From the NCBI GenBank assembly GCA_004297315.1, contig SCTU01000075.1, positions 1 through 33,694 of the forward strand: 33,694 bases of DNA. Direction: 5' to 3'. Each line of letters starts with the position of its first letter. The first letter of the stretch is position 1. The DNA comes from Dehalococcoidia bacterium (GTDB lineage Bacteria > Chloroflexota > Dehalococcoidia > UBA2979). Position numbers and translations under genes: made by a program. Under the pieces are notes generated by a model, which was not told where the DNA came from, did no database searches, and saw only the letters and a program-made list of their open reading frames with translations. Below are positions 11,353-33,089 of this stretch, piece after piece.

Positions 11353-11619
11353 ATGGACTCGCACACGCGCGCCGACGTCCTCAAGCGCCTCAACTACATC
11401 GACGGGCATCTCCAGGGCGTCCGCAAAATGATCGAAGAGGACCAGTACTGCGTGGACGTGATGAAGCAGGCGTTCGCCGTCCGCCGCGCCATCGAAAAGT
11501 TGGAGGCGACGATGCTGGACGGGCACCTGCACCACTGCGTGGCGGAGGCCGTCCGCGCCGGCGAGACCGAGCAGGTCTTCGGAGAACTCGTCGAACTGTA
11601 CCGTCTCGCGAACAAGTAG
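11353..11619 (+). CDS. csoR: Cu(I)-sensing repressor CsoR
   Basis: [22 protein letters not shown] and HLHHCV give the C-H-C fingerprint. Confidence 0.93.
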
Positions 11620-11632
11620 CCGAAAGAGTCCC

Positions 11633-14011
<2,379 letters not shown>

Positions 14012-14021
14012 TGGCGGGCGC

Positions 14022-15239
14022 CTAGCCCCCGAGCTGCTCGATCTGCGAGGCCAGTTCGAGGCGGTGCTCGGACTCGGCGGAGGCGGGCTCGGCTGCGGGA
14101 CGTTGCCGCGGCAGCGCGAAGCGAAGGAGCAGCGGCGCGGCCAGCGTTGTGAGCAGCGTCACCGCGATGCTGGCCGTGTACGTGTTGTCGCCGATCACCC
14201 CCGACTGATGGCCCAGCACCGCGATCACGAGGGCGACTTCGCCCCGCGCGATCATCCCCGTGCCGACCGCGAGCGACTCGGCGTGGGTGAAGCGCCCCAG
14301 CCGCGCTCCGCCGTAGCAGCCGACCACCTTCGTCGCCACAGCCACGACCAGCAGCAGGGCGGTGAACACCGGCACCGCGCGCAAGCCCGCGAGGTCGGCG
14401 GACATCCCCGTGGTCACAAAGAAGATGGGGGCGAAGAGCGCGTACCCGATCAGATTGCCGAAGTCCGCCAGGTCTTCCTGCAGGATCGTCCGTCCGAACA
14501 TCACCCCGGCGAGATAGGCGCCCGAGATCGCGGCCAGCCCGCCGATCTGCTGGGCCGCCCACGCGAATGCCAAGACCAGCGCGAGTACTTCGAGGAAGCG
14601 GTGCTCGCGCGTCTCCATGAGGACCAGGCGGACGGCGGCCATCTTCGTGATGAAGTGGCCGGCGATCAGCGCAGCCGGGATGAAGACCGCCAGCCGGACC
14701 AGGTCGCCGGCGCCACCGCCGCCCTCGATGCTGACGACCACGGTCAGGACGACCACCCCGATGATGTCGTCGATCACCGCCGCGCCGAGGATCGCGCTCC
14801 CGATCCGGCTCTGCAGGAAGCCCGCCTCCTTCAGCACGTGGGCGGACACCGTGACGCTCGTCGCGGTCATGATCGTCCCGATGAAGACGGCCTCCGAGGT
14901 GCCGTAACCAAAGGCCATCGCCAGGCCAGCCGCCGCGGCCATCGGCATGGCGACGCCGCCCACCGCCGCCAGCGTGGCGGCGATCCCGACGCGCCGCATC
15001 TCGACAAGGTCAGTCTCGATACCGGCGACGAATAGCAGGAGCACCACGCCGATGCTCGACATGCCCTCGAGCGCGGCGGACGGGTGGATGAGGCCGGTCA
15101 CGCTCGGACCCAGCAGGACGCCGGCGACGAGCACGCCAAACACGCTCGGGAGCCCGAGTCCGGTCGCGATGGAAGAGGTGATCCGGGCCGCCAGCAGGAT
15201 CAGCGCGAGGCTGATCAGGAGTTCGGCGGAGGATTCCAC
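14022..15239 (-). CDS. CPA2 cation:proton antiporter, NapA-type, without an RCK domain
   Basis: LLFVAGIETD, ATSV, AAVIDD, PIFF, TKVVG and MIARGEVAL motifs; about 12-13 TM segments; SD GGAG. Confidence 0.9.
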   Translation of the reverse strand: MESSAELLISLALILLAARITSSIATGLGLPSVFGVLVAGVLLGPSVTGLIHPSAALEGMSSIGVVLLLFVAGIETDLVEMRRVGIAATLAAVGGVAMPMAAAAGLAMAFGYGTSEAVFIGTIMTATSVTVSAHVLKEAGFLQSRIGSAILGAAVIDDIIGVVVLTVVVSIEGGGGAGDLVRLAVFIPAALIAGHFITKMAAVRLVLMETREHRFLEVLALVLAFAWAAQQIGGLAAISGAYLAGVMFGRTILQEDLADFGNLIGYALFAPIFFVTTGMSADLAGLRAVPVFTALLLVVAVATKVVGCYGGARLGRFTHAESLAVGTGMIARGEVALVIAVLGHQSGVIGDNTYTASIAVTLLTTLAAPLLLRFALPRQRPAAEPASAESEHRLELASQIEQLGG

Positions 15240-15333
15240 GAGTGCTCCGGGACGCTAGCCCGGGCCAACTGCTGCCCGAGCGGATTCAGACGGTCGCAGC
15301 AGCCCCAGGCCTGCCGCGATCGCGATCACGGTA

Positions 15334-15420
15334 CTACTGCTGCGCAGAACGCCGGCTGCGGAAGTAGTGGATCGCGGTGCTGACTGCGAAGAGACCGAAG
15401 AAGACGATTCCCGGTGCCAT
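15334..15420 (-). CDS. Putative 28-aa membrane peptide (MAPGIVFFGLFAVSTAIHYFRSRRSAQQ)
   Basis: Read by hand; below the ORF-track cutoff. ATG...TAG with a hydrophobic helix and basic tail, G/C-ending codons, and a candidate promoter about 50 nt upstream. Confidence 0.55.
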   Translation of the reverse strand: MAPGIVFFGLFAVSTAIHYFRSRRSAQQ

Positions 15421-15469
15421 CTCAGATTCCCGTCTGCCGGCCTCGTGGGAGAGGTGTCCGACATTCAGG

Positions 15470-15523
15470 ACGTTACGGAGCCCATGTTTCGTGAAGGTGA
15501 CGCCGGAGTCTCAGTCACGTGAC
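15470..15523 (-). promoter_or_regulatory. GlnR-box-like tandem operator plus -10 element
   Basis: The minus strand reads GTCAC-N6-GAGAC-N6-GTCAC-N6-GAAAC (15523-15486), then N10, then TAACGT (15475-15470). Confidence 0.7.
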
Positions 15524-15558
15524 GAGTTCATTGCTTCTGCCGCGCCCGCATACACGCG

Positions 15559-15586
15559 AAAGGGGCGAGGCCGCAGCCTCGCCCCT
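15559..15586 (-). terminator. Intrinsic terminator after amt
   Basis: Stem AGGGGCGAGG / CCTCGCCCCT (15561-15586), 24 nt after the amt stop, with a short U-tract on the minus strand. Confidence 0.75.
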
Positions 15587-15610
15587 CTTGGTTCGTGGTT
15601 TGCCTCGAAA

Positions 15611-17797
15611 CTATCGGGCCCCGACGAATTCTCCCGTCATCGCACTGCCGTAACCGGGGATCTCCTGGGGAGGGTACGCGTGCGTGCCCATCTCCGGGAT
15701 GTCCAGACCGGCCATCTCGTCCTCAGGCTTCGAGCGGAAGATGCCCATCGCCTTCAGGACCGAGAAGAGTACGAACGAGGTGCCGAACGACCAGACGATG
15801 ACCGTCACAGCACCCACGAGTTGCGCCACGAGCTGCGCCCCGTCCCCGAAGAAGAGCCCCTTGATCGGGTGCCCCACCACGAGGAAGTCCGGCGCCGTCC
15901 CGTCCGCAAACAGTCCGACACAGAGGATGCCGAAGACGCCGCTCACACCGTGGACGGCGATCGCACCCACGGGGTCGTCGACCTTGAGCACCCGGTCGAT
16001 GAAGCCCATCGCCCAGCACGTCAGGACTCCGGCCATCCCGCCGATCAGGACGGCGAGGATCGGGCTGACGTACCCGGACGGGGCCGTGATCGCCACCAGG
16101 CCGGCCAGAATGCCGTTGATCATGTAACCGGGGTCGTACTTGCCCAGGGTCATCCGCGCGAAGGCCATCGCGGTCACGGAGCCGGCAGCACCTGCCAGCA
16201 TCGTCACCACCGCGACTTCGCCGATACGCAGGTTGCCGCTGCCGGCAGCGCCGAGCGTCGAGCCCGGGTTGAACCCGAACCACCCGAACGCCAGGATGAA
16301 CGTCCCGATCGCCGCCATGTTGATGTTGTGGCCCGGCATCGCGTTCACGCTGCCGTCTCGGTTGTACTTGCCCAGCCGCGGCCCCAGCACCCACGCCGCG
16401 GCGAGTGCGGACCATCCGCCGACGGAGTGCACCACGCCGCTCCCGGCGAAGTCCACATACGGACGGCCGATCACGGAGTCCTTCAACTGGAAGAGCCAGC
16501 CGCCGCCCCACGCCCAGTTGCCGAACATCGGGTAGATGAACCCACCGATGAACACGCCCCAGATGAGGAACGACACCCAGCGCCATCGCTCGGCGACCGC
16601 GCCCGTGAGGATCGTCGCCGCGGTGTCCATGAACACCATCTGGAAGAGGAACAGTACCGCGATGCCGACGTCGAGCACGTTCGGCCCGAGGAAGAAGCCC
16701 TTGTAGCCGAAGAGGCCCCACTTCGTGCCCGCGAGCGTGATCCCGGCTTCCTTGTCGAGCGCGAGCAGGCCCGCACCCAGGTTCGTCGGGCCGGTGAGGC
16801 CAACACCACCGAACTGGATCGCGAAGCCGACCGCCCAGTACGCGAGCATGCCGACGCCGTAGATCATGAAGTTGGTCATCATGACCTGCATCGCGCTCTT
16901 GGCACGGCAGAAGCCGGTCTCCACCATCGCGAAGCCCGCCTGCATGAACATGACGATGTAACCGGTGACCAGCACCCAGACGAAGTTGATCGCCAGGCGG
17001 TTCTGGTTCACGTACGCAGCCAGGTTGTAGGCGAACGGCTCTTTTGTCTGCGCTTCCGCGAACATCTTCGCGGTGGCATCGGCGTCCAGCGCCCCGTCCT
17101 TGTCGAGTACGGCGAGGCTGCCCCCGCCGACTCCGACGCCGGCGAGGTCCTCTGGGGTGCCGACCTTCGTACCGGACACGTCGAGTGCTGGCCCGTCGTC
17201 CGGGCCGTCGGCGAAGGCGGTGTGCGCGCCCAGTCCGAGCAACAACGCGACCGCGACCACCGGCACGATCAGCAGCGCCGGCCGGATCGCCTTGACGGAC
17301 GGCGTGGCGCCCGCGGCCGTCTTCACGGGCCTGAGGTGGCGCGTGAGCGCTGCCGTCACCAGCGGGTACCGCTTGAGGGCCACGCGCACGTCGAAGCGGT
17401 TCGAGGTCGCTGTGCCAATGAGGCGGACGCTCCCCTTGCGTGCTTCGTACCCGCTGAACTCCGCCCAGGGGCGGAACACCACGCGGTTCACCGCGATGCC
17501 GGTGCTCGTCAGGCGATAGCGGACCGGGCGGCTCACGACGGCATACATCGCAAGCATCGCGACGAGTTCAAGTCGCGCATGAACCACACCCGAAAGTGAG
17601 CCCAGCACGAGCAGAACCCCGAGTGAGTAGATGGAGAACTGGTGGTAGCGCAGCCGCTCCGAGAAGGAGAGGTTGAACTCGCGTTCCATTTTCCCCTCGA
17701 CCTTTGCGCCGCGGATGGCGACCACCCGCGAGAGCGCGGTCAGGATGGTGAAGAGCAGCGGCATCAAGAAAAGTGCCGTGGTCAGTTGCGGGGTCAT
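15611..17797 (-). CDS. amtB: Ammonium transporter (Amt) with a long N-terminal extension, 728 aa
   Basis: MQAGFAMVETG, FQMVF..GAVAER, WGGGWL, DFAGSGVVH, GWFGFNPGS, DDPVGAIAVHG and C-terminal EMAGLD. Start chosen at ATG 17797, 8 nt after the TPR gene stop. Confidence 0.93.
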   Translation of the reverse strand: MTPQLTTALFLMPLLFTILTALSRVVAIRGAKVEGKMEREFNLSFSERLRYHQFSIYSLGVLLVLGSLSGVVHARLELVAMLAMYAVVSRPVRYRLTSTGIAVNRVVFRPWAEFSGYEARKGSVRLIGTATSNRFDVRVALKRYPLVTAALTRHLRPVKTAAGATPSVKAIRPALLIVPVVAVALLLGLGAHTAFADGPDDGPALDVSGTKVGTPEDLAGVGVGGGSLAVLDKDGALDADATAKMFAEAQTKEPFAYNLAAYVNQNRLAINFVWVLVTGYIVMFMQAGFAMVETGFCRAKSAMQVMMTNFMIYGVGMLAYWAVGFAIQFGGVGLTGPTNLGAGLLALDKEAGITLAGTKWGLFGYKGFFLGPNVLDVGIAVLFLFQMVFMDTAATILTGAVAERWRWVSFLIWGVFIGGFIYPMFGNWAWGGGWLFQLKDSVIGRPYVDFAGSGVVHSVGGWSALAAAWVLGPRLGKYNRDGSVNAMPGHNINMAAIGTFILAFGWFGFNPGSTLGAAGSGNLRIGEVAVVTMLAGAAGSVTAMAFARMTLGKYDPGYMINGILAGLVAITAPSGYVSPILAVLIGGMAGVLTCWAMGFIDRVLKVDDPVGAIAVHGVSGVFGILCVGLFADGTAPDFLVVGHPIKGLFFGDGAQLVAQLVGAVTVIVWSFGTSFVLFSVLKAMGIFRSKPEDEMAGLDIPEMGTHAYPPQEIPGYGSAMTGEFVGAR

Positions 17798-17805
17798 CGG
17801 AAGTC

Positions 17806-18339
17806 CTATCCCAGTGCCGTCGCGACGGCGGGTTCGGCTGGTTGAGTACGGCGCCGCCACGGACGCCAGCCCTTCGGCCACCGCGGCAGCGCGGTCTCGC
17901 GGTAGAAGAGCCCCTTGCTCTTGTCGATGCAGAAGCGCCGCATCTCGAAGGCGGCCCGGTACTCGGGCTCACCGGACGCGTGCTCAAGCGCCGCATTGAG
18001 GTGCGGCACCGATTTGTCGTAGAACCCGAGGCGCGCGAAGTACTCCGCCTGGGCCATCTGGCAGGCGAACTCGCCGGGCGTCTCGGCCAGCGCGCCCTCG
18101 ATCAGGTCCTGCGCCTCGTGCACCCGACCCATCCGGACGTAGGCGACGCCGAGGCTGGCACGGGCTGCCGTCCACGAGGGGTATTCCGCCACCACACGTT
18201 CCAGCAGCGGGATCGCGTCCGTGACCTGCCCGATGACGAGCAGGTGATGGGCGCGCGTCCAGGCCTCCGCAGCCGGTGGCGCCGGGAGATGCGACGACGC
18301 GACGGCGCCACCGCCTGCAACCACTTGCTCTGCAGTCAC
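17806..18339 (-). CDS. Tetratricopeptide-repeat protein, 177 aa
   Basis: TPR-like helices (AIPLLERVVAEYPSW, ARASLGVAYVRMG..EAQDLIEGALAETP, AEYFARLG). Strong SD AAGGAGG before GTG 18339. Confidence 0.8.
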   Translation of the reverse strand: MTAEQVVAGGGAVASSHLPAPPAAEAWTRAHHLLVIGQVTDAIPLLERVVAEYPSWTAARASLGVAYVRMGRVHEAQDLIEGALAETPGEFACQMAQAEYFARLGFYDKSVPHLNAALEHASGEPEYRAAFEMRRFCIDKSKGLFYRETALPRWPKGWRPWRRRTQPAEPAVATALG

Positions 18340-18467
18340 GGGCAACCTCCTTCGCCGCACGTGCGACGGTCCCGCGCGCGCACGCAGGCGCACACTTTGC
18401 GGGCGTGCGAGGGGTAGGAGGCGACCAGCGATGCGATGCACGCCGGTGGAGAGTTCCGCCCCCCTCC

Positions 18468-18571
18468 GTTTCCGCTTGATGCGGAGATTGCCGCTCAGAT
18501 GTTTCCGAGTGTTGGAGAACAGGCGTCGATTGGATGTACTTTCGGTGTCCGCAATGTTTCGCGCGCGTCTC
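18468..18571 (-). promoter_or_regulatory. Phased GAAAC repeats and candidate promoter of the TPR-amt operon
   Basis: GAGAC-N6-GAAAC-N6-GACAC (18571-18545), plus GAAAC at 18505-18501 and 18472-18468, all in 11-bp register. GAAAC-N10-CAATCT is the candidate -10. Confidence 0.55.
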
Positions 18572-18634
18572 AGAGGTTGGAGACAGTGCCGCCCGGGCTG
18601 GCATTCAAGCCGCCCAGAGTCAGGCCTATGAGAT

Positions 18635-18734
18635 CTAGTAGTGGATCGCGCGCGGCGCGCCGCCGTCCGCCGCGATCGCGTCGCCGTTGATCGCGACCGA
18701 CAGCGGAGAGGCGAGGAATGTCACGACGGCCGCG
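18635..18734 (-). pseudogene. Orphan 3' fragment of the SDR gene (last 32 codons plus stop)
   Basis: 89/100 nt identical to 20223-20322; translates to AAVVTFLASPLSVAINGDAIAADGGAPRAIHY*. Confidence 0.9.
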
Positions 18735-18756
18735 CGGCCTTCGCCGCCGTGTCAGA

Positions 18757-18785
18757 TTGACGGGCGCGGACGGAGCCATCACGAT
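18757..18785 (+). promoter_or_regulatory. Sigma70-type promoter for the leader-MFS unit
   Basis: TTGACG-N17-CACGAT. Confidence 0.55.
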
Positions 18786-18818
18786 GCGTGCAACGCCGCA
18801 GGCGCTCAGGAGGACACT

Positions 18819-18872
18819 ATGAACGCATCGTTGATCCGGACGTTCAACCTGCCTGCCTCGCGCGCCGCTTAA
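18819..18872 (+). CDS. Putative leader peptide, 17 aa (MNASLIRTFNLPASRAA)
   Basis: Strong SD AGGAGG; lies between the promoter and the efflux gene; followed by alternative hairpins near the MFS RBS. Confidence 0.65.
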   Translation: MNASLIRTFNLPASRAA

Positions 18873-18929
18873 CGAGCCAAACTCAACCGCTCGACCGCGT
18901 CACACGGGGCGTGACCCCGGAGTCCGTGC

Positions 18930-20210
18930 ATGCCTTCGACTGTCTCGTGCCTTCGACGGCCCACGGTCCTGCCCGGCCGTCCGGTCGACCCCGCACGTCT
19001 CTACGTGCGCCTCGCCGGCCTCGGCGGGTTTGCGAACGCCGCCGGCCTCGTCCTCTACGCCTACTACGTCGTACGCGTTGCGCATCTGTCGCCGCTCGAA
19101 CTGGTCCTCGCGGGCACGGCACTCGAAGCCGCGGCCTTCTTGTTCGAAATCCCGACCGGCGTCGTTGCCGACCTGGCGTCTCGGCGGCTCTCGGTCATCC
19201 TCGGCTACATGCTCGTGGGCGCGGGCTTCCTCCTGATGGGAGCGGCACCCGAGTTCTGGGCGATCGCCGGTGGCCAGTTCGTCTGGGGCATTGGCTTCAC
19301 GTTCATCAGCGGCGCGCGCGAGGCGTGGCTCGCGGATGAGGTCGGTGACGACGTTGCCGGACCCCTCTATCCCGCGTTTGCGAGGCGCCGCCAGGTTGGC
19401 TCGCTCCTTGGCGGGTTCGTCGGCGTCGGTATCGGCTGGTGGTGGGCGGCGGGCACGCTGCTTGCCGGTGGCGTGCTCTATGCGCTCGCCGGGGTCTACC
19501 TGCTGTTCGCGATGACCGAGCATGGCTTCACGCTCGCGGCCCGCGAGGACCGCGCCACGTGGCGCACTCCCTTCGTACAGGCTGGCGCCGGCCTGCACGT
19601 CGCACGATCTCGCCCGGTCGTGATCACCGCCCTACTCACGACACTGCTGATGGGTGGCTCTTCCGAGTCATTCGACCGGCTCTGGGGCTTTCACCTCATC
19701 AACTCGTTCAACGGGCTGCCCGACGTAATGCCGGAGGCACTCTTCTTTGGCCTCGTGCAGCTCGTCGCGCAACTCGGGTCGATCGCCGCGCTGCGGATCG
19801 CGCAGTCGAGGACTGACTTCAATAGTTCTAGCAGCGTCGCAATCGGTCTGATCGGCTCGAACCTCGCGATCATCGTGACAATGGTCCTGTTCTCGGCCGC
19901 CCCGATGTTCGCGATTGCCCTTGTGGGCGCGTGGGCCACGTTCTGGGTGCGCGCCGTTGAGGAGCCGTTCGCCACGGCGTGGGTGAACCGGGGTCTGGCC
20001 TCGCAGACGCGCGCGACCGTGCTCTCGACGATGGGCCAGTCGAACGCCCTCGGTCAGATCGTTGGCGGCCCGCTGTTCGGCCTGCTCGCCGCCGCGGCGG
20101 GCGTCCGCGCCTCGATCGCCGTCGCCGCGCTCGTGCTCATCCCCGCTGTGGCGCTCTATTGGAGGCATCGCAGCGTTGAGTCGAATGACCCGGTGGACCT
20201 GGCGACGTGA
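18930..20210 (+). CDS. TetA(P)-like MFS efflux transporter
   Basis: HLSPLELVLAGTALE..FLFEIPTGVVAD..SRRLSV, QFVWGIGFTFISGAREAWLADE, SESFDRL and RATVLS..GQ..GGP match the TetA(P)/Tet(40) family pattern. Substrate is not established. Confidence 0.85.
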   Translation: MPSTVSCLRRPTVLPGRPVDPARLYVRLAGLGGFANAAGLVLYAYYVVRVAHLSPLELVLAGTALEAAAFLFEIPTGVVADLASRRLSVILGYMLVGAGFLLMGAAPEFWAIAGGQFVWGIGFTFISGAREAWLADEVGDDVAGPLYPAFARRRQVGSLLGGFVGVGIGWWWAAGTLLAGGVLYALAGVYLLFAMTEHGFTLAAREDRATWRTPFVQAGAGLHVARSRPVVITALLTTLLMGGSSESFDRLWGFHLINSFNGLPDVMPEALFFGLVQLVAQLGSIAALRIAQSRTDFNSSSSVAIGLIGSNLAIIVTMVLFSAAPMFAIALVGAWATFWVRAVEEPFATAWVNRGLASQTRATVLSTMGQSNALGQIVGGPLFGLLAAAAGVRASIAVAALVLIPAVALYWRHRSVESNDPVDLAT

Positions 20211-22983: not shown

Positions 22984-23628
22984 ATGGTGTGGGCCACATT
23001 CAGCCCGCCCGCGGTGCTGCCGTTCCGCGGGGCGAAGGCGGGCGCGTTGGACCGTACTGCAGCGCGCGACGCCGCTGTCTCGGCCGACCCGGCCGATGTC
23101 ACGCGCCTCGTCGACCGCGCGAAGGCCGGGGACTCACAGGCCTTCGGCCTCCTATACGACCGCTTCCAGCCGGAGATCCTCCGCTACCTCACCTACCGGA
23201 CGCGCAACGCCGAGACCGCCGAGGACCTCACGCAGCAGGTCTTCCTCAAGGCATGGCAGGCCATCCCGCGCTTCGAGCAGCGCGGCGTGCCGTTCAAAGC
23301 CTGGCTGTACCGCATGGCCCACAACCAGATGGTCGACCACTTCCGTACCCACAAGCCCACGAGCGAACTGGGCGACTTTGACCTGCCCGACAGCGCCGAC
23401 CAGGAGTCTGCGCTGCTCGCCGTTGAGATGAGCGAGGCGCTCCAGCGCGCCCTCGACCGGCTCTCGGAGGACCACCGCCAGGTCCTGGTCCTGCGGTTCC
23501 TGATGGAGAAGTCCGCGCGCGAGATCGGCGAGGTGATGGGCCGCAAGGAGGTCACCGTCCGTGGCCTCCAGATGCGCGCCCTCCAGGCGCTGCGTCGCGA
23601 GATCGAGACGATGGGAGGGCTGCCATGA
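22984..23628 (+). CDS. ECF RNA polymerase sigma factor
   Basis: AFGLLYDR, AEDLTQQVFLKAW and FKAWLYRMAHN..VDHFR (region 2); region 4 L..LSEDHRQVLVLRF..EIG. Start is uncertain (22945 or 22984). Confidence 0.93.
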   Translation: MVWATFSPPAVLPFRGAKAGALDRTAARDAAVSADPADVTRLVDRAKAGDSQAFGLLYDRFQPEILRYLTYRTRNAETAEDLTQQVFLKAWQAIPRFEQRGVPFKAWLYRMAHNQMVDHFRTHKPTSELGDFDLPDSADQESALLAVEMSEALQRALDRLSEDHRQVLVLRFLMEKSAREIGEVMGRKEVTVRGLQMRALQALRREIETMGGLP

Positions 23629-25532
23629 CCAGGCGTCTCCCGGTCGATGAAATCGTGGACCGTTGCGTGGAGGAGATCCGCAGCGGCCGGAGCACGGTGG
23701 AGGAGTGCCTGCGGCGCTACCCCGAGCTTAACCACGAACTGGAGCCGTTGCTCCGCGCCGCCGAGGCGTTGAGCGCGCTGCCGCGCACCGTCCAGGCCTT
23801 CTCCCCCGACCCGCACCAGCGCGCCGCGTTCATGGCGACGCTGCGCGAGACGCCGCAGCAGCGCCGCCGCTGGCAACCCTCGCTCCCTGCGCTGCTTGGC
23901 ACGGGCGCCTTCCGCATCATCGGGCCGGCCGTCGCGCTGGCGGCGCTCGCGGTGGTGGCCGTCTTCGGCGGTGGTGGCGGCACGCCTGCGGCCGCCTCGA
24001 CGCTGACCGTATTCGACGGCGAGGTGCAGCGCCTCGACAGCGCCGAGTGGAGGCCGATGCGCGACGGCGACACGGTCGAGCCTGGTGTGCGCCTGCGCAC
24101 CGGGGCCGCCGGCCACGCGCTGCTCACCTTCCCGGACGGTTCCACCGTCGCCCTCGATCCGCTGACCGAGCTCGCGGTCGAGACGATCGCGGTCGCCCCG
24201 CGCCGGGTCGAGGTTCGTCAACTCTCCGGCCGTCTCTGGCACGACGTCGTTCACGACGAGACGGCGGGCGCGCGGTTCGTCGTCCTCACGCCGGACGCGC
24301 GCGTGGAGGTGGCGGGCACCGTCTTCGAGACCATTGTGGACGTGAGCACCGGCCAGACCGACGTCGCCACCGTGGACGGCGAAGTGCGCGTGGTGGCGGG
24401 CAGCCAGACGGTCCCGGTCGGCCGTGGCGAGACGCTCCGCGCGAGCGCCGCGACGATCCAGTCCGTCTCCACCGCACCGCTGCTGGACGGCGCCCTCACG
24501 GTAAATGGCCCGTTCGCCGCAGCCATCATGGCCACAGACGGCCGCGGCGCCGGCGTGCGCACCGACGGCGTGGTCTTCCAGCAGTTGCGCGGGGTCACCA
24601 CCTCGCGCCAGGACGGCCACCAGCGGTTCGACCTTCAGGATGCGGGTTCCGGCGACCTCGTGCTGGTCCTGCAGCGGTACGGCGAGGGCGGCGGCGAGAT
24701 CGTGCTCGACACCGCGCACGGCCAGCAGCGGTTCAAGATCAACGCCGAGACACGCCTCACCCGCCTCCCGCTGCGCCTCGAAGTGTTCGAGGGGCTGCCG
24801 GCGTTCGCGGTGACAGCGCCCCCGGTCGCCGACGACGCCGCCCCCGTGCCGGCCGCACGCATCGTGACCAGCGACCGCACGAAGGACGCCGTGGAACTCG
24901 GTCAGGGCAAGGAGGGCCGTGGGAGCGGGCGCGCCACGACCGCCCGGACGCCGACGCCGAACAACGCCACGAGCGCGCCCGCGTCCCCGGCGACTGATCG
25001 AGACTCGGACCGCACCGCCACACGCACGCCGGACGTCACGCCCACGCCCAGCCCGACGCCGTCGGTAGCCGCGACGAATGCCGTCCCTGACGCGGCCGTG
25101 CTGGCCTACGCACAGCGGCTCCGCATCGCCATCGCCTCGGGCCGGCCGGAAGCCATCCGTGCCGCCCTCCTTGAAGCGGTCGCCGGAGACAACTCCGCAC
25201 TTCGACGGCGCCAGGTGGCGGTCATCGCCTCGGCACTTGGGGACGACACGAACGCGTTGCGCATCGGCAGCCTGTTCGTCTCCGGCGACAACGGAGCGTT
25301 GCGCGACAGCCTGCGTACCGTGCTGGCCGAGCTCGGCAATGACGCGCGCGAGACGTTCGACGACGCCGTCGCGCACGCGAGCGAACGACGGCAGCAACAG
25401 TCCTCGGACGACAACCGCACGCCGACGGCTACGCCGCGCGCCGCCACGCCGGCAACGACCACCACGGCGACGGCTACGCTGGGCGTCATCATCACCCCGT
25501 CGGCCTCCGGATCGCTGGTGCCGCTGCCCTGA
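23625..25532 (+). CDS. Membrane anti-sigma factor with FecR-like extracytoplasmic domain
   Basis: ATGA overlap with the sigma gene. Helical N-domain (VEECLRRYPE..ELEPLL), one TM, a FecR-like domain (LTFPDGS..L...T; GRLW; TPDARVEVAGTVF; V..GEVRV) and Pro/Thr linkers. Confidence 0.8.
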   Translation: MTRRLPVDEIVDRCVEEIRSGRSTVEECLRRYPELNHELEPLLRAAEALSALPRTVQAFSPDPHQRAAFMATLRETPQQRRRWQPSLPALLGTGAFRIIGPAVALAALAVVAVFGGGGGTPAAASTLTVFDGEVQRLDSAEWRPMRDGDTVEPGVRLRTGAAGHALLTFPDGSTVALDPLTELAVETIAVAPRRVEVRQLSGRLWHDVVHDETAGARFVVLTPDARVEVAGTVFETIVDVSTGQTDVATVDGEVRVVAGSQTVPVGRGETLRASAATIQSVSTAPLLDGALTVNGPFAAAIMATDGRGAGVRTDGVVFQQLRGVTTSRQDGHQRFDLQDAGSGDLVLVLQRYGEGGGEIVLDTAHGQQRFKINAETRLTRLPLRLEVFEGLPAFAVTAPPVADDAAPVPAARIVTSDRTKDAVELGQGKEGRGSGRATTARTPTPNNATSAPASPATDRDSDRTATRTPDVTPTPSPTPSVAATNAVPDAAVLAYAQRLRIAIASGRPEAIRAALLEAVAGDNSALRRRQVAVIASALGDDTNALRIGSLFVSGDNGALRDSLRTVLAELGNDARETFDDAVAHASERRQQQSSDDNRTPTATPRAATPATTTTATATLGVIITPSASGSLVPLP

Positions 25533-25535
25533 CGG

Positions 25536-26606
25536 TCAGACCGCGGGGCGAGAGTCCGGCGGCCTCACGCTCACCGGCCGCATCGGCACGCCCTCGGCGG
25601 CAAGGGCGGCCGGCAACCGCTGGGCGAGGACGTGGCGCAGTTCGGCGGCCTCCGCGAACCCGCGCGCCCTTACCCGGACGACGACTTCGACGTGGTTGTC
25701 GGCGAACCGGTTGATGCGTACGGACGGCTCCGGGCCGGGGAGCGCGCCGGGCTCGCTGTCCCGCACGCGACGCGCCTCCGCGGCGAGCGCTCGGACGGCG
25801 AGCGCAAGGTCGACGTCGTAGGTGACGCTGAGTTCGAGCCGTGCGTCCATCCCGGGGTCGCCGGCGGAATAGTTCGTGACTACGGAACCCGCAAGCAGGC
25901 TGTTCGGCACGATCACGATGTTGTTGTCCGCGTTGCGCAGCCGCGTCGCGCGCCAGCCGATGTCCTCGACGCGGCCCGAAGGCCCGCCCGCCATCTCGAT
26001 CTGGTCACCCACGCGCACCGAGGCGTCCGAGAGCATGTAGGAAGAGGCGAAGAGGTTGGCGAGCAGCGGCTGGAGTGCCAGCGCCACCGCCAGACCGCCG
26101 ATCCCGAGTCCCGCGAGCAGCGGGCTGATCTCCACGCCCAGCGCGTCCAGGACGATCATCGCGCCCGCGAGGACGATCGCGACGCTCGAGGCGCGGCGGA
26201 CGAGCGGCGCCGTCCGCGCGTCCAGGCGCCCTCCAGCGGCGCTCGGACGGGCGGCATACCAGCCGAGCAGACGTGACACCGTCTGCTGCACGGCAAGCGT
26301 CACGATCGCGACGGTGGTCGCGAGCCACGCCCGTTCGAGGCGCAGGTGGTGCGGCTCCAGGTACGAGAGCGTGCGCAGCGCCAGGAAGAGCGCCTGGGCG
26401 AACACGAGGAGCACCAGCGGGGCCCGCAGCGCGCCGGCCAGCGCCTCGTCCAATTCGCGCTGTGCGGCGCGTGTCACGCGATGCACTGCCCAGCGCAGCG
26501 CGACGGCCAGCAGTCGCGCTGCAGCGGCGGCGAGCAGCACGAGGGCGAAGGCCGCTGCGGTCTCGCCCCATTCCGCGCGGGTCAGGCCGAATCTCAGTCC
26601 ATCCAC
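25536..26606 (-). CDS. mscS: Small-conductance mechanosensitive channel (MscS family)
   Basis: LLAGLGIGGLAVALALQ..LANL, VGDQI, GRVEDIGWRATRLR and VIVPNS motifs. Confidence 0.92.
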   Translation of the reverse strand: MDGLRFGLTRAEWGETAAAFALVLLAAAAARLLAVALRWAVHRVTRAAQRELDEALAGALRAPLVLLVFAQALFLALRTLSYLEPHHLRLERAWLATTVAIVTLAVQQTVSRLLGWYAARPSAAGGRLDARTAPLVRRASSVAIVLAGAMIVLDALGVEISPLLAGLGIGGLAVALALQPLLANLFASSYMLSDASVRVGDQIEMAGGPSGRVEDIGWRATRLRNADNNIVIVPNSLLAGSVVTNYSAGDPGMDARLELSVTYDVDLALAVRALAAEARRVRDSEPGALPGPEPSVRINRFADNHVEVVVRVRARGFAEAAELRHVLAQRLPAALAAEGVPMRPVSVRPPDSRPAV

Positions 26607-26688
26607 CGAGGCATCCTACCCCACAGATGTTTCACAACTCGAATCGGAGCACGTGCCATACTCGACTGCGTCCGAAGGGAGAGCCGCC

Positions 26689-27552
26689 GTGTTCCAGTCG
26701 CTGTTCCGTTCGCTCGCTCACACCGTCGAGTTGATGAAGACCTCGTGGCGCGTCCTGATGCAGGACCGCGAACTGATGGTGTTCCCCATCCTCTCGGGCA
26801 TCGTCGTCATTGTCATCGCCGGAATCTTCGCGGCGCTCGCCTTCAACCTCGGGACGTTCGACCGGCTTTCCGCGGCCCGCGAGGCAGGTGCTCAGGCGTC
26901 GTTCACCGCGGCTGACATCACGCTCGGCACAGCGCTGGCATTCAGCGTCACCGCCGTCACGGTGTTCTTCAACGCGGCACTGATCTCGGCAGCCCTGGAG
27001 CGCCTCGACGGTGGCGACCCGACGGTGCGGTCAGGCCTCCGCGTCGCAAGCCAGAGCCTCCCGGCGGTCCTCGTGTGGGCCGCGATCTCCGCGACCATTG
27101 GGCTGCTGCTCCAGGCCGCCCGCGGCCAGTCACGCGGCGGCGCCGGCGCGATGCTCGTGCGGATTGGCGTGGCGATGGTCGGTGGCATCTGGGCCTACAT
27201 GACGTTCTTCGTCGTCCCTGTGATGGTCGCGGAGCGCCTGGGCGCCGTGGCCGCGATCAAGCGCTCGAGCGCGCTGTTCCGGCAGACATGGGGGCAGCAG
27301 GCCGGGGCGTCGTTCGGCTTCGGGCTGATCTACGTCGGCGCCGCGCTCGTGACCGCAGCGGTCGCCGTCCCGTTGATGATGGTTTACCCGCTCCTCGGGA
27401 TCATCGCAGGTGGAGCAGTCTTCGCCGTCGCGTTCGGAGCGGTCGCGGCGATGGAGGGGATCTTCAAGGCCGCGCTATTCCGCTTCGCCTCCGGCCAGCC
27501 GTCCGCAGCCTTCGACGACGCCACACTGCGGTCGGCGTACCGCGCGCTCTAG
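26689..27552 (+). CDS. Membrane protein, DUF6159-like
   Basis: SWRVLMQDRELMVFP, FFNAAL, TFFVVPVMV.E..AIKRS..LFRQTWG; about 6 TM. Start at GTG 26689 after AAGGGAG. Confidence 0.75.
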   Translation: MFQSLFRSLAHTVELMKTSWRVLMQDRELMVFPILSGIVVIVIAGIFAALAFNLGTFDRLSAAREAGAQASFTAADITLGTALAFSVTAVTVFFNAALISAALERLDGGDPTVRSGLRVASQSLPAVLVWAAISATIGLLLQAARGQSRGGAGAMLVRIGVAMVGGIWAYMTFFVVPVMVAERLGAVAAIKRSSALFRQTWGQQAGASFGFGLIYVGAALVTAAVAVPLMMVYPLLGIIAGGAVFAVAFGAVAAMEGIFKAALFRFASGQPSAAFDDATLRSAYRAL

Positions 27553-32165: not shown

Positions 32166-33089
32166 ATGCCGCACACCATCCTGCTCGCGGAACCGCGCGG
32201 CTTCTGCGCCGGGGTTGTCCGCGCGATCGACGTCCTGAACCAGGTCCTCGACGCCGAATCCGGCCCCGTGTACGCGTTCCACGAGATCGTGCACAACCGC
32301 TACGTGGTCGACGGGTTTCGGGAGCGTGGCGCGATCTTCGTAGAGTCGGTAGACGAAGTCCCGGTGGGGTCGCGGATCGTCTTCTCCGCCCACGGGGTAG
32401 CCCCCGACGTCATTGCCTCGGCGCGTGACCGAGGCTTGCGGGTGATCGACGCCACCTGCCCGCTCGTGACGAAGGTGCACCTCGAAGCAAAGAAGGCGGC
32501 GAAAGACGGCTTCGAGATCCTGCTCGTGGGCCACGAGGGACATGACGAGGTCGAGGGGACGAAGGGCGAAGCGCCCGACCGCACGCGCGTGGTGGACAGC
32601 CGGCGCGACGTGCAAGCCCTCGGCGAGCCGGGACGGCCGGTCTTCGTCGTGACCCAGACCACGCTCTCGGTGGACGACACCGCGGACACCATCGCTGCGG
32701 TGCGGGAGCGCTTCCCATCCGCGCAGATCCGCAACGACATCTGCTACGCGACGACGAACCGCCAGTCGGCGGTCAAGGTGCTGGCGGAGCGCGCTGGCTT
32801 GGTCATCGTGGTCGGCTCGGCGAACTCCTCGAACTCCGTGCGACTGTGCGAGGTGGCCCGCTCGATGGGCACGCCGGCCTACCGCGTGGACGGCATCGCG
32901 GAGATCGACCCCGCCTGGTACGAGGGCGTCGCGGTCGTCGGCCTGACCGCTGGCGCCTCCGTGCCGGACGACCTCCTGCAACCGATCATCGAGGACCTCC
33001 GCGCGCGCGGCGTCACACGGATCGAACCGGTCGTCGTGGCGGAGGAGACAGTGGAGTTCCGGCTGCCGGAGGAACTCGAAGCGCGCTAG
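32166..33089 (+). CDS. ispH: 4-hydroxy-3-methylbut-2-enyl diphosphate reductase
   Basis: PRGFCAGV, EIVHN, SAHG, DATCPLV.KVH, H.EVEG, DICYATTNRQ, SSNS and TAGAS motifs. Confidence 0.97.
   Translation: MPHTILLAEPRGFCAGVVRAIDVLNQVLDAESGPVYAFHEIVHNRYVVDGFRERGAIFVESVDEVPVGSRIVFSAHGVAPDVIASARDRGLRVIDATCPLVTKVHLEAKKAAKDGFEILLVGHEGHDEVEGTKGEAPDRTRVVDSRRDVQALGEPGRPVFVVTQTTLSVDDTADTIAAVRERFPSAQIRNDICYATTNRQSAVKVLAERAGLVIVVGSANSSNSVRLCEVARSMGTPAYRVDGIAEIDPAWYEGVAVVGLTAGASVPDDLLQPIIEDLRARGVTRIEPVVVAEETVEFRLPEELEAR

What the first reader, a model, noticed from the sequence alone, without database searches (positions are those of the whole stretch)
14022..18571. Candidate new nitrogen module: TPR + extended Amt, then micropeptide + CPA2 antiporter, under matching operators
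Seen: two consecutive minus-strand units separated by a terminator. Each is preceded by 11-bp-phased GAAAC-type repeats with the same geometry to a -10-like hexamer (GAAACATGGGCTCCGTAACGT and GAAACATCTGAGCGGCAATCT). No PII gene is in the window. Known: amtB is usually paired with glnK, and a CPA2 protein (AmhT of Bacillus pseudofirmus) mediates NH4+/K+ flux. Inference: a co-regulated ammonium uptake and cation/pH-balancing system in which TPR and small-protein partners replace or supplement GlnK.
Basis: partly seen in the sequence, partly recalled or inferred. Interest (0 to 1): 0.75.

Follow-up and report, generated by a model that had tools for sequence, protein, structure and literature searches.

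The report
Nitrogen-controlled Amt–TPR–antiporter gene module
A groundwater Chloroflexota genome carries a gene set, apparently switched on by nitrogen shortage, that pairs an unusual ammonium-transporter-like protein with a TPR partner, a 28-residue membrane peptide and a sodium/proton-type antiporter; the same combination recurs in several phyla and our literature searches found no study of it.

Summary
On the minus strand lie two units split by a strong terminator: TPR gene + 728-aa Amt, then a small ORF + a 405-aa CPA2 antiporter. Each unit is preceded by 11-bp-phased GnnAC/GAAAC repeats placed 10 nt before a -10-like hexamer.

- **Operator:** the repeats fit the actinobacterial GlnR box (a-b-a-b). 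In this genome they also precede two glutamine synthetase genes, amtB-glnK-glnD and a nitrite/sulfite reductase. The genome, a Chloroflexota MAG, encodes a GlnR-like atypical response regulator and a receiver-less paralogue.
- **Amt extension:** it is a separate 3-TM + PH-like module, fused to Amt in 13 and adjacent to it in 14 of 27 loci.
- **Micropeptide:** the real one is a 28-aa transmembrane ORF (15420..15334). The 69-aa ORF is not coding.
- **Conservation:** Amt + TPR + CPA2, often with PII and a small membrane protein, recurs in Chloroflexota, Acidobacteriota and other phyla.
- **TPR docking:** a complex model places TPR on the Amt cytoplasmic face and C-tail (0.64, best control 0.00).
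- **Amt type:** its nearest solved relatives are the sensor Amts Ks-Amt5 and Sd-Amt1, and all four N1-site ligands are kept.

GlnK is not replaced. A canonical amtB-glnK-glnD lies elsewhere, and relatives carry PII inside the module. The physiological coupling of Amt and antiporter is inferred only.

The parts
18534..18571 (-). Distal array of 11-bp-phased half-sites GAGAC-n6-GAAAC-n6-GACAC-n6-TACAT upstream of the TPR unit
   Evidence: This array is poorly conserved in G001 and G003.
18468..18516 (-). Proximal boxes CCAAC-n6-GAAAC (18505..18501), then a further GAAAC (18472..18468) 33 nt downstream; -10-like CAATCT at 18490..18485
   Evidence: Both GAAAC are invariant in G001 and G003. The hexamer reads CAGGCT and GAGCCT in the congeners.
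17806..18339 (-). Cytoplasmic TPR protein, 177 aa (GTG start behind GAAGGAGG)
   Evidence: Pfam TPR_16 41.9, TPR_14 40.3 and TPR_19 36.6 bits, all above cut-off. Orthologues align across phyla (A5). Modelled onto the Amt cytoplasmic face.
17303..17797 (-). N-terminal module of the Amt gene (residues 1-165): 3 TM helices + cytoplasmic PH-like beta-sandwich
   Evidence: AF2 pLDDT 93.9. PH-domain matches at Z 9.3-8.0. Family of 102 representatives, mostly stand-alone proteins of about 170 aa. No Pfam or NCBIfam hit.
17210..17296 (-). Signal-peptide-like hydrophobic segment (residues 168-196, ...AHTAFA|DG) that would act as a fourth TM helix in the fused protein; a linker of about 75 aa follows
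   Evidence: Read from the translation. The topology is inferred.
15611..16981 (-). Amt core (Pfam domain 16981..15674) plus C-terminal tail; residues 691-723 are in the modelled TPR interface
   Evidence: PF00909 359 bits, TIGR00836 365.6 against a 343.3 cut-off. Best solved relatives are 6EU6, 8QJ3 and 8QPF. Interface.
15558..15586 (-). Intrinsic terminator between the two units
   Evidence: dG -29.2, z -4.57. Compensatory changes.
15486..15523 (-). Four-site GlnR-type operator GTCAC-n6-GAGAC-n6-GTCAC-n6-GAAAC
   Evidence: The half-sites are kept and the spacers vary in G001 and G003.
15470..15475 (-). -10-like hexamer TAACGT (TAGCCT in G001 and G003), 10 nt after the last box
   Evidence: The TAnnnT consensus is recalled. 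The sigma-70 scan found 0 sites in 13800-19000.
15334..15420 (-). 28-aa single-TM micropeptide MAPGIVFFGLFAVSTAIHYFRSRRSAQQ
   Evidence: Kept in G001 and G003, with variable columns 2/2/12 at codon positions 1/2/3. A 32-aa counterpart lies before the CPA2 orthologue of G062. No family hit.
14022..15239 (-). CPA2 cation/proton antiporter, 405 aa, with no KTN/RCK domain
   Evidence: PF00999 201.9 bits. Nearest solved chains are the Na+/H+ antiporter 4BWZ/5BZ2/5BZ3 at E 6e-45, with KefC at 1e-15.

Best explanation
This is a two-operon member of a GlnR-type nitrogen regulon in a Chloroflexota bacterium.

Shown by sequence and comparison. Operon 1 encodes a cytoplasmic TPR protein and an Amt paralogue whose N-terminus carries a fused 3-TM + PH-like module. 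Operon 2, behind a strong terminator, encodes a 28-aa transmembrane peptide and a NapA-like CPA2 cation/proton antiporter. Each operon has head-to-tail 5-nt half-sites at 11-bp spacing, ending 10 nt before a -10-like hexamer. This is the architecture of the actinobacterial GlnR box, which four GlnR protomers bind around the -35 position to activate transcription.

Inferred. Under nitrogen limitation the GlnR-like regulator of this genome activates both units together with glnA, amtB-glnK-glnD and nitrite reductase.

Modelled. The TPR protein sits on the cytoplasmic loops and C-terminal tail of the Amt. In canonical AmtB that face is the one where GlnK docks (recalled).

Inferred from conserved linkage only. 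Amt, TPR, the small membrane protein, CPA2 and, in many relatives, PII work as one ammonium acquisition and homeostasis unit. The antiporter would balance the proton and charge consequences of ammonium entry, or exchange NH4+/K+/Na+ for H+.
For: Operator.
- The consensus gTnAc-n6-GaAAc-n6-GtnAC-n6-GAAAc is quoted in passages of review PMC10704036. The window has GTCAC-n6-GAGAC-n6-GTCAC-n6-GAAAC.
- The half-sites are conserved and the spacers vary in two congeners.
- Like boxes precede the CPA2 orthologue in G062, G227, L029 and L030.

Regulon.
- The same genome has GAAAC-n6-GAAAC before both glutamine synthetase genes and GAAAC-n6-GTAAC before amtB-glnK-glnD. An array also lies before a NIR_SIR reductase.
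- All 5 strict sites lie outside predicted genes.

Regulator.
- The 232-aa response regulator on C223 has GlnR chains as its three best PDB hits: 8HIG 5e-35, 8HIH 6e-34, 8HML 1e-28, ahead of MtrA at 1e-27. Only its Trans_reg_C domain matches Pfam.
- Two canonical response regulators of the genome hit KdpE and RegX3 best, with no GlnR chain at E<=1e-25.
- 8HIH and 8HML are GlnR structures (PMC10235972, passages).

Module.
- N-domain then Amt in 10 of 10 class loci; TPR in 9, CPA2 in 6, PII in 5.
- Among 80 wider Amt relatives, CPA2 lies within 3.5 kb in 47 and PII in 44.
- 23 of 29 ORFs between Amt and CPA2 have TPR-family hits at E<=0.01.
- The N-domain is fused in 13 and adjacent in 14 of 27 loci.

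Contact. Complex prediction gave 0.64 as the median of three runs, with a best control of 0.00. The tool states that this mark was reached by 116 of 157 solved complexes and 2 of 215 mismatched pairs, and that these counts hold only roughly with own alignments. The runs agree in at least 87% of contacts and the partner pLDDT is at least 72. Contacts fall at Amt residues 296-300, 475-492, 549-557, 595-609 and 691-723.
Against: - There is no expression or binding data of any kind.
- Genome-wide, strict arrays are no more numerous than in shuffles (8 against 6, 4, 4).
- The distal TPR array is imperfect and not conserved in the congeners.
- Only 4 of 12 other TPR upstream regions show GAAAC/GTAAC pairs at multiples of 11.
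- No boxes were seen before CPA2 in L025, L026/L032, L031, L039, L044 and L049. Ktedonobacteria-type loci carry a palindrome instead.
- The N-domain query was not found in 3 of 5 other genomes of the genus, which are 70-90% complete.
- Related OmpR-family regulators could bind the same boxes; MtrA does so in Streptomyces, per the title of a reference listed in PMC10704036.
- The complex was modelled with one Amt protomer, whereas Amts are trimers.
- The CPA2 substrate is unknown, and nothing shows that it handles ammonium.
Confidence: 0.7

Rival explanations
1. The Amt paralogue is mainly an ammonium receptor (transceptor), not a bulk transporter. It would signal through non-covalent partners, namely the PH-like module and the TPR protein, and perhaps set the activity of the CPA2 antiporter. 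Uptake would be left to the canonical AmtB-GlnK.
For: - The three best solved relatives are the sensor Amts 6EU6 (Ks-Amt5) and 8QJ3/8QPF (Sd-Amt1). Their identities are given in PMC5764959 and PMC11152129 (passages).
- In the alignment all four N1-site ligands of Ks-Amt5 (E31, N47, T109, T112, named) are kept as E293, N309, T395 and T398. Q24 is kept as Q286.
- The Phe+Glu signature (F289, E293) stands where the genome's canonical AmtB reads ...LFYGG.
- Two of the three pore-obstructing residues of Ks-Amt5 (F27, F34) are kept as F289 and F296.
- A second, canonical amtB-glnK-glnD exists in the genome.
Against: - The N2 ligands are not kept: Ks D50 is I312 and T51 is Y313, and Y30 is V292.
- The same 'cluster 2' signature includes plant AMT1 proteins that do transport (PMC11152129).
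- No transducer domain such as a kinase or cyclase is fused.
- Many orthologues sit next to PII, as transporters do.
Confidence: 0.25
2. One reading: TPR and the small peptide take over the role of GlnK, as plug or regulator, for this Amt and for the antiporter.
For: - No PII gene lies in the window.
- TPR is modelled on the cytoplasmic loops and C-tail of the Amt, the face used by GlnK on AmtB (recalled).
- In the window, G001, G003, L028, L029 and L030 the module has CPA2 but no PII hit.
Against: - The genome keeps glnK with amtB and glnD, so GlnK could still act in trans.
- TPR and PII co-occur in the same cluster in many loci, for example L012, L023, L024, L027, L031, L032 and most Acidobacteriota loci. 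They are therefore not alternatives.
- The peptide-antiporter contact was not tested.
Confidence: 0.15
3. The repeats are bound by another OmpR/PhoB-family regulator (for phosphate, envelope or cation stress), and the CPA2 unit is an ordinary pH/salt homeostasis gene that merely neighbours the Amt.
For: - Direct repeats at 11-bp spacing are generic for this regulator family.
- The genome has 16 Trans_reg_C matches.
- The CPA2 is most like a Na+/H+ antiporter.
- Some relatives lack boxes before CPA2.
Against: - The same motif marks glnA, a second GS gene, amtB-glnK-glnD and nitrite/sulfite reductase in this genome.
- The only regulator genes found next to those genes are GlnR-like.
- CPA2 lies within 3.5 kb of the Amt in 47 of 80 loci from several phyla, in different gene orders.
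Confidence: 0.1

Closest known systems
Actinobacterial GlnR regulon and GlnR box (Streptomyces, Mycobacterium, Saccharopolyspora)
   Same: - 5-nt a/b half-sites separated by 6 nt, in head-to-tail arrays of four near the -35 position.
- Targets include glnA, amtB-glnK-glnD and nitrite reductase.
- The regulator is an OmpR-type protein with an atypical receiver.
   Different: - The host is Chloroflexota.
- Two searches for GlnR with Chloroflexi listed no paper on the subject. One search gave 15 co-mentions, none on topic by title; the 12 papers listed do not contain the word Chloroflexi.
- A receiver-less GlnR_DBD-only paralogue of about 97 aa sits beside the GS gene and, in G055, directly before the module.
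- The targets include a CPA2 antiporter.
Canonical AmtB-GlnK(-GlnD) ammonium uptake system
   Same: - An Amt-family channel under nitrogen control.
- A soluble partner is predicted on its cytoplasmic face.
- PII is adjacent in many orthologous clusters.
   Different: - This Amt scores far below the AmtB equivalog (121 against 657 bits).
- It carries the Phe/Glu N1-site signature instead of the Tyr of the genome's own AmtB.
- It has an N-terminal PH-like membrane module and a signal-peptide-like segment with a linker.
- Its conserved partners are a TPR protein and a CPA2 antiporter.
Sensor Amts Ks-Amt5 (6EU6) and Sd-Amt1 (8QJ3/8QJ4/8QPF)
   Same: - They are the best solved sequence relatives (E 2e-81 and 3e-64).
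- All four N1 ligands, Gln-24 and two of three bulky helix-I residues are conserved.
   Different: - No C-terminal kinase or cyclase transducer is present.
- The N2 ligands Asp and Thr are replaced.
- The extra module is N-terminal and PH-like.
- Whether the protein transports ammonium is unknown.
NapA-type CPA2 Na+/H+ antiporter (4BWZ/5BZ2/5BZ3; the name NapA of Thermus thermophilus is recalled) and the AmhT/AmhM ammonium-potassium system of Bacillus pseudofirmus (recalled)
   Same: - CPA2 membrane domain of about 390-405 aa without a fused KTN domain.
- The sequence contains ...VIDDI..., which resembles the twin-Asp ion-binding motif of electrogenic CPA2 (motif recalled).
   Different: - It is linked to an Amt, a TPR protein and a small TM protein, and it sits under a nitrogen-type operator.
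- The substrate is untested.
- No AmhM/KhtT-like RCK partner was seen in the window.
- Kinship with AmhT could not be tested.
YobD/UPF0266 (DUF986) and DUF5673 small membrane proteins
   Same: Language-model neighbours of the N-terminal module at 0.92-0.93, with similar length of about 150-165 aa.
   Different: HMMER finds no Pfam match for the module at E<=10 apart from a chance-level Tetraspanin hit. The link is a lead only. None of these families is known to pair with Amt (recalled).

Membership tests
Amt/MEP/Rh ammonium transporter family | Match to PF00909 / TIGR00836 above the curated cut-offs | tested here: met
   PF00909 scores 359.2 against 23.2 bits. TIGR00836 scores 365.6 against 343.3 bits.
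Amt/MEP/Rh ammonium transporter family | Phe gate and twin-His pore residues | tested here: met
   In the alignment to 6EU6, Ks-Amt5 F103 aligns with F389. The His of ...VVHS(V/I)GGW... and of ...AIAVHGV... are identical in query and target. The residue roles come from PMC5764959.
AmtB equivalog (NF007947) and marine subtype (TIGR03644) | Score above the equivalog cut-off | tested here: not met
   NF007947 scores 121.2 against 657. TIGR03644 scores 322.9 against 514.
Ammonium-receptor ('cluster 2', N1/N2-site) Amts | Conservation of the N1 and N2 ligand set of Ks-Amt5/Sd-Amt1 | tested here: inconclusive
   N1: 4 of 4 ligands kept (E293, N309, T395, T398). N2: Gln kept (Q286), Asp changed to Ile (I312), Thr changed to Tyr (Y313). 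Supplementary table S2 of PMC11152129 was not read.
CPA2 monovalent cation:proton antiporter | Na_H_Exchanger domain; TIGR00932 subfamily cut-off | tested here: inconclusive
   PF00999 scores 201.9 against 26.2 bits, which is met. TIGR00932 scores 163 against 238.3 bits, below its cut-off.
KefB/KefC glutathione-gated K+ efflux | Equivalog score and a C-terminal KTN/RCK domain | tested here: not met
   It scores 79 bits against cut-offs of 752 and 804. The protein has 405 aa with no second Pfam domain.
AmhT-type NH4+/K+ CPA2 transporter | Sequence kinship with AmhT and an AmhM-like RCK partner gene | not testable with these tools
   No AmhT sequence was held, and none of the papers listed by the search contains the term. 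No RCK-type gene is among the window's Pfam hits.
GlnR box (operator) | 5-nt half-sites with A at position 4, 6-nt spacers, head-to-tail; usually two boxes (four sites) | tested here: met
   GTCAC/GAGAC/GTCAC/GAAAC at 15523..15486 all have A at position 4. The consensus and the position-4 adenine are in PMC10704036 passages. The TPR promoter meets the feature only in part.
GlnR box (operator) | Bound by GlnR and nitrogen-responsive | not testable with these tools
   No RNA run holds the stretch.
GlnR (OmpR-type global nitrogen regulator) | OmpR-type wHTH closest to GlnR; atypical receiver | tested here: met
   L110 (G000 C223) has as its top three PDB hits 8HIG, 8HIH and 8HML; 8HIH and 8HML are GlnR chains per PMC10235972, while 8HIG is taken as GlnR only from recall and its rank between them. 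Pfam finds only Trans_reg_C at 1e-5. Two control response regulators do not hit GlnR. Orphan status (no partner kinase) was not tested.
PII / GlnK | PF00543 gene in or next to the module | tested here: not met
   The only match in the genome is C296:7327-7644, next to the canonical amtB.
TPR repeat proteins | TPR Pfam models above cut-off | tested here: met
   TPR_16 41.9 against 32.7; TPR_14 40.3 against 23.5; TPR_19 36.6 against 25; TPR_2 29.1 against 27.
PH-like fold (for the N-terminal module) | Seven-stranded beta-sandwich capped by a C-terminal helix | tested here: met
   The AF2 model has pLDDT 93.9, with strands at 37-138 and a helix at 141-152. VIA-align gives Z 9.3 (rmsd 2.5 A, 80 residues) to the SSRP1 middle domain, followed by many PH domains. 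Foldseek E-values are only about 4e-3. Z lies only slightly above the tool's stated background of 7-8.
DUF986 / DUF5673 | Pfam model match | tested here: inconclusive
   No HMMER match at E<=10. Atlas feature neighbours score 0.92-0.93.

The most novel reading that the evidence does not exclude
Amt, a dedicated TPR protein, a small membrane protein and a NapA-like CPA2 antiporter, with or without PII, form a physical ammonium sensing and scavenging complex. It is conserved from Chloroflexota to Acidobacteriota and Dormibacterota.

In this reading an N1-site (receptor-type) Amt reports or admits ammonium. The TPR protein, docked on the Amt cytoplasmic face and tail, couples it to the antiporter. 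Proton import through the antiporter then traps or balances incoming NH3/NH4+. In Chloroflexota a PH-like membrane module has repeatedly fused to the Amt.

The whole set is run by a GlnR system outside the Actinobacteria that includes a receiver-less GlnR paralogue.
Probability: 0.25. Interest if true: 0.85.

Novelty: new variant of a known kind. Interest (0 to 1): 0.7.

Why it matters
How bacteria other than the model proteobacteria, firmicutes and actinomycetes sense and take up ammonium is largely unknown. The phyla concerned here, Chloroflexota and Acidobacteriota, dominate soils and groundwater.

If the reading is right, it gives four things:
- A GlnR-type nitrogen regulon in Chloroflexota, with a testable operator and two candidate regulators.
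- A recurrent partner set for a receptor-like Amt clade: TPR, a PH-like membrane module, a small TM protein and a CPA2 antiporter. This would be a new way of regulating or coupling Amt proteins besides GlnK.
- A possible link between ammonium entry and proton/cation balance.
- A 28-aa membrane peptide that is too short for common gene-caller length limits (recalled).

A cultured carrier, Thermogemmatispora carboxidivorans PM5 (locus L033), makes these points directly testable.

Tried and rejected
- **69-aa ORF (15464..15255) as the micropeptide:** rejected. GC3 is 0.64 and there is a stop in the G001 frame.
- **P0004 (17984..18604) as the TPR gene:** rejected. It is an Arg/Ala/Gly/Pro-rich product of a wrong frame.
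- **Riboswitch or other known RNA in the 356-nt leader:** Rfam gave 0 matches at gathering thresholds over the window. Only three chance-level hits appeared at E<=5.
- **Attenuator between micropeptide and CPA2:** the fold energies are not better than shuffles (z -0.14, -0.24, +1.51). In L022 z is -1.64, with 12 of 200 shuffles as good.
- **Sigma-70 consensus scan:** 0 promoter-like sites. It did not list the real terminator because the T-run is short.
- **Family searches:** Pfam and NCBIfam gave nothing useful for the micropeptide or the N-terminal module (FixQ E 0.13, Tetraspanin E 0.0085).
- **Foldseek against the PDB:** no match at E<=0.001.
- **The search for related loci with the 63-row alignment A3:** The single protein P0008 was used instead.
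- **Expression:** no RNA holder is listed for window 14000-18700. The DNA holders are groundwater metagenomes.
- **Earlier findings of this scan:** three look-ups returned nothing.
- **Literature:** searches for AmhT/CPA2/ammonium, GlnR + Chloroflexi, amtB + tetratricopeptide + antiporter + glnK + Acidobacteria and 'ammonium transporter' + CPA2 + operon listed no paper on this module, judged from titles and abstract starts only.
- **Actinobacterial origin of the window:** first guessed from the amtB-glnK-glnD order, then rejected.
- **Micropeptide-CPA2 complex:** not modelled.

Full report
**1. What is there**

The window is contig C25 of a 2.5-Mb, 323-contig genome with about 70% G+C. In such DNA many spurious ORFs are open, so genes were picked by third-position G+C.

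Between 14022 and 18571 the minus strand carries four features.
- A TPR protein, most likely GTG 18339..17806 behind GAAGGAGG, with several TPR models above their cut-offs.
- An Amt of 728 aa, ATG 17797..15611, four bases after the TPR stop. The Pfam domain starts only at residue 273.
- A hairpin terminator at 15586..15558, with dG -29.2 kcal/mol and z -4.57.
- A 356-nt stretch of low coding signal, then a CPA2 antiporter, GTG 15239..14022.

The flanks are unrelated: a divergent MFS gene upstream, and a convergent CsoR plus P-type ATPase pair downstream. Rfam finds nothing in the region.

**2. The micropeptide**

The longest small ORF (69 aa) is not coding. Its GC3 is 0.64 and the frame has a stop in G001.

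A 28-aa ORF at 15420..15334 encodes one hydrophobic helix with a basic tail. In two congeners, G001 and G003, it is kept with 2, 2 and 12 variable columns at codon positions 1, 2 and 3. Column identity is 0.77 in the ORF and 0.32 in the 60 columns after its stop.

A 32-aa counterpart (MAAGI..., hydrophobic, then RRSRR) lies before the CPA2 orthologue of G062, which belongs to another family.

In Acidobacteriota and Dormibacterota loci, a two-helix protein of 44-58 aa with a G[AV]P..P[VL]..G motif and a basic tail ends 0-108 nt before the CPA2 gene, or overlaps it by 4 nt. In all, 20 of 54 CPA2 loci tested have such a small TM ORF. Only ATG starts were considered, and one of the 20 is really the end of the TPR gene. 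Homology between the short and long forms is only suggested by the alignment.

**3. The Amt extension**

Residues 1-165 fold with high confidence (pLDDT 93.9) into three TM helices plus a beta-sandwich with a C-terminal helix. The sandwich matches PH-like domains: Z 9.3 to the SSRP1 middle domain and 8.5 to the ARAP3 PH domain. These values are only a little above the tool's stated background.

A search of 1.84 billion representatives found 102 relatives at E<=0.001. Most are stand-alone proteins of about 160-190 aa, and a few are long. No Pfam or NCBIfam model matches. The Atlas suggests DUF986 and DUF5673 as distant neighbours, which is a lead only.

After the module comes a signal-peptide-like segment (...AHTAFA/DG) and a linker of about 75 aa. 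In the fused protein that segment would be a fourth TM helix, and the PH-like domain would be cytoplasmic. This topology is inferred.

Of 27 loci with both parts, 13 have them fused and 14 have them as adjacent genes. These come from 89 loci examined, not de-duplicated by genome. Such fusion and fission argues that the two parts work together.

**4. The operators**

Before the micropeptide-CPA2 unit the full array is GTCAC-n6-GAGAC-n6-GTCAC-n6-GAAAC (15523..15486), followed after 10 nt by TAACGT. In G001 and G003 the four half-sites are kept (GTTAC in one case), the spacers differ, and the hexamer reads TAGCCT.

Before TPR, GAAAC starts at 18560, 18505 and 18472, with spacings of 55 and 33 nt. 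The last two are invariant in the congeners, and CAATCT follows the middle one after 10 nt. The distal array is not conserved.

This is the known GlnR-box layout gTnAc-n6-GaAAc-n6-GtnAC-n6-GAAAc, with the adenine at position 4 essential (review PMC10704036, passages). In the M. tuberculosis GlnR activation complex, four protomers bind such sites head-to-tail around the -35 element (PMC10235972, passages).

**5. Is it the nitrogen operator of this organism?**

In the same genome:
- GAAAC-n6-GAAAC lies 39 nt before one glutamine synthetase gene.
- GAAAC-n6-GAAAC-n6-GATAC lies between a second GS gene and a divergent regulator gene.
- GAAAC-n6-GTAAC lies before amtB-glnK-glnD.
- GAAAC-n6-GCAAC-n6-GAAAC lies before a NIR_SIR nitrite/sulfite reductase.

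A strict scan (at least 3 of 4 in-phase GnnAC with at least one GAAAC) gives 8 hits, which are 5 sites, in the genome. All fall in the 23.5% of the genome outside predicted genes, and two are in this finding. Shuffled genomes give 6, 4 and 4 hits, so the number alone is not significant. The placement and the conservation carry the argument.

**6. The regulator**

The nearest named relatives of the Amt are Chloroflexota: Tepidiformaceae, Dehalococcoidia, Ktedonobacteria and Thermogemmatispora. The organism is therefore not an actinomycete.

It nevertheless encodes a 232-aa OmpR-type protein on C223 whose three best PDB hits are GlnR chains, ahead of MtrA. Its receiver does not match Pfam at 1e-5. 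Two ordinary response regulators of the genome hit KdpE and RegX3 instead.

Next to the second GS gene starts a receiver-less wHTH protein. It is cut by the contig end in G000 and has about 97 aa in G001. Its best PDB hits are the same GlnR chains. In G001 the GlnR-like regulator follows it directly. In G055 another receiver-less copy lies directly before the TPR-PH-Amt-PII operon.

Our two searches for GlnR with Chloroflexi listed no paper on the subject.

**7. Conservation of the module**

The N-terminal module was found in 2 of 5 other genomes of the genus and in 9 of 301 genomes of the class, G000 included.

In the 10 loci fetched around those matches:
- N-domain then Amt occurs in 10 of 10.
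- A TPR gene lies just before it in 9.
- CPA2 is present in 6.
- PII follows the Amt in 5 (one locus, L026, is from the unpublished genome G270, and no claim depends on it).

Among the best 80 of 465 confirmed Amt relatives in species-representative genomes:
- CPA2 lies within 3.5 kb of the Amt in 47.
- PII lies within 3.5 kb in 44.
- One or the other is present in 70.
- Of the 55 loci with at least 3.5 kb on both sides, 36 have CPA2, 30 have PII, 18 have both and 7 have neither.

The gene order differs by lineage:
- TPR, PH-Amt, then CPA2 in Dehalococcoidia-type loci.
- CPA2, TPR, PH-Amt in Ktedonobacteria-type loci.
- Amt, TPR, small TM protein, CPA2, PII in Acidobacteriota and Dormibacterota.

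Of 31 ORFs found between Amt and CPA2, two were PII genes and were dropped. Of the remaining 29, 23 have TPR-family hits at E<=0.01, many below the curated cut-offs, and 6 have none. These ORFs align with the window's TPR protein over its whole core at 16-24% identity. The acidobacterial forms carry a C-terminal TM anchor, and some Dehalococcoidia forms carry an N-terminal zinc ribbon.

GlnR-type arrays precede CPA2 in the window, G001, G003, G062, G227, L029 and L030. They were not seen in L025, L026/L032, L031, L039, L044 or L049. Ktedonobacteria-type loci have a TGTGCA-N4-TGCACA-like palindrome instead.

**8. Contacts**

One complex job was run: TPR (alignment A5) against the full PH-Amt protein (alignment A6).

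The tool's verdict is that the model supports binding but does not show it. The score is 0.64 (runs 0.66, 0.64, 0.64) and the best of three controls is 0.00. By the tool's calibration, this mark was reached by 116 of 157 solved complexes and 2 of 215 mismatched pairs, and the counts hold only roughly with own alignments. The runs agree in at least 87% of contacts, and the partner pLDDT is at least 72.

The confident contacts are on Amt residues 296-300, 475-492, 549-557, 595-609, 691-695 and 711-723. These are the loops after helix I, the long loop 5 and later cytoplasmic loops, and the C-terminal tail. No contact falls in the PH-like module. I know of no solved TPR-Amt complex (recalled), so a pass from memory is unlikely. 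Only one Amt protomer was modelled.

**9. What kind of Amt and what kind of antiporter**

The genome's other Amt (406 aa) sits in amtB-glnK-glnD and reads ...LFYGG... in helix I. The window's Amt reads ...FAMVETG... at that place.

Its best solved relatives are Ks-Amt5 (6EU6) and Sd-Amt1 (8QJ3, 8QPF), both ammonium receptors. All four N1 ligands and Gln-24 are kept. The N2 ligands Asp and Thr are not. Two of the three pore-narrowing residues are kept. The published 'cluster 2', which has this signature, also holds true transporters, so transport cannot be excluded.

The CPA2 is far closer to a solved Na+/H+ antiporter (E 6e-45) than to KefC (1e-15), and it lacks a KTN domain.

**10. Reading**

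- The regulatory part rests on motif, placement, conservation and a matching regulator. I hold it at about 0.7-0.75.
- The TPR-Amt contact is modelled.
- The functional coupling of Amt and antiporter rests on linkage only.
- The claim that TPR and the peptide replace GlnK is not supported.
- The more novel readings, a receptor-type Amt or a physical Amt-TPR-CPA2 unit, are open.
- No RNA data exist for this lineage.

Noticed in passing
L033, L035, L036, L037, L040, L041 (about 100-250 nt upstream of the CPA2 start): In Ktedonobacteria/Chloroflexia-type loci the same module (order CPA2-TPR-PH-Amt) is preceded by an AT-rich region. It holds a 16-bp palindrome of the type TGTGCA-N4-TGCACA instead of GAAAC direct repeats. 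The shape recalls CRP/FNR/NtcA-family sites (recalled).
   Followed up: no
G000 C168:4892 to the contig end (L124 1444-1647); L125 1704..1411; G055:C3:524185-524379: Receiver-less OmpR-type wHTH proteins of about 97 aa have GlnR chains as their best PDB hits. One is divergent from a glutamine synthetase gene and has a GAAAC-n6-GAAAC-n6-GATAC array in front. One lies directly before the TPR-PH-Amt-PII operon of G055.
   Followed up: partly
L051, L055, L057, L062, L071, L077, L083, L084, L088, L092 and others (just upstream of CPA2): Acidobacteriota and Dormibacterota loci encode a conserved two-helix protein of 44-58 aa (G[AV]P..P[VL]..G, basic tail). It abuts or overlaps the CPA2 start. The TPR orthologue there has a C-terminal TM anchor.
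   Followed up: partly
L012, L023, L028, L029, L030, L032, L043 (N-termini of the TPR orthologues): Several Dehalococcoidia-type TPR orthologues carry an N-terminal CxxCG...CxxCG zinc-ribbon-like segment. The window's copy lacks it.
   Followed up: no
window 11353-14011 (+): A CsoR-type metal-sensing repressor is followed by a heavy-metal P1B-type ATPase with an HMA domain, convergent on the CPA2 gene. The ATPase also neighbours the module in G001 and G003.
   Followed up: no
window 33086-33676 (-): An OmpR-type response regulator (Response_reg + Trans_reg_C) is cut by the contig end. It has a typical receiver, so it is not the GlnR-like one.
   Followed up: no
G000 C168 end (5097) and C223 end (16799): By synteny with G001 (wHTH gene followed by the GlnR-like regulator), these two contig ends probably adjoin in the real genome.
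   Followed up: no
L047 6840-6890: An Armatimonadota locus has GAAAC-n6-GTAAC-n6-GAAAC about 370 nt before the Amt match. The same operator type may therefore reach beyond Chloroflexota and Actinomycetota.
   Followed up: no
window 23625-27552: A FecR-domain protein, an MscS-type mechanosensitive channel and a DUF6159 protein lie together. The crude gene calls at 25536-26606 (-) and 26056-27552 (+) overlap, so one start is probably wrong.
   Followed up: no
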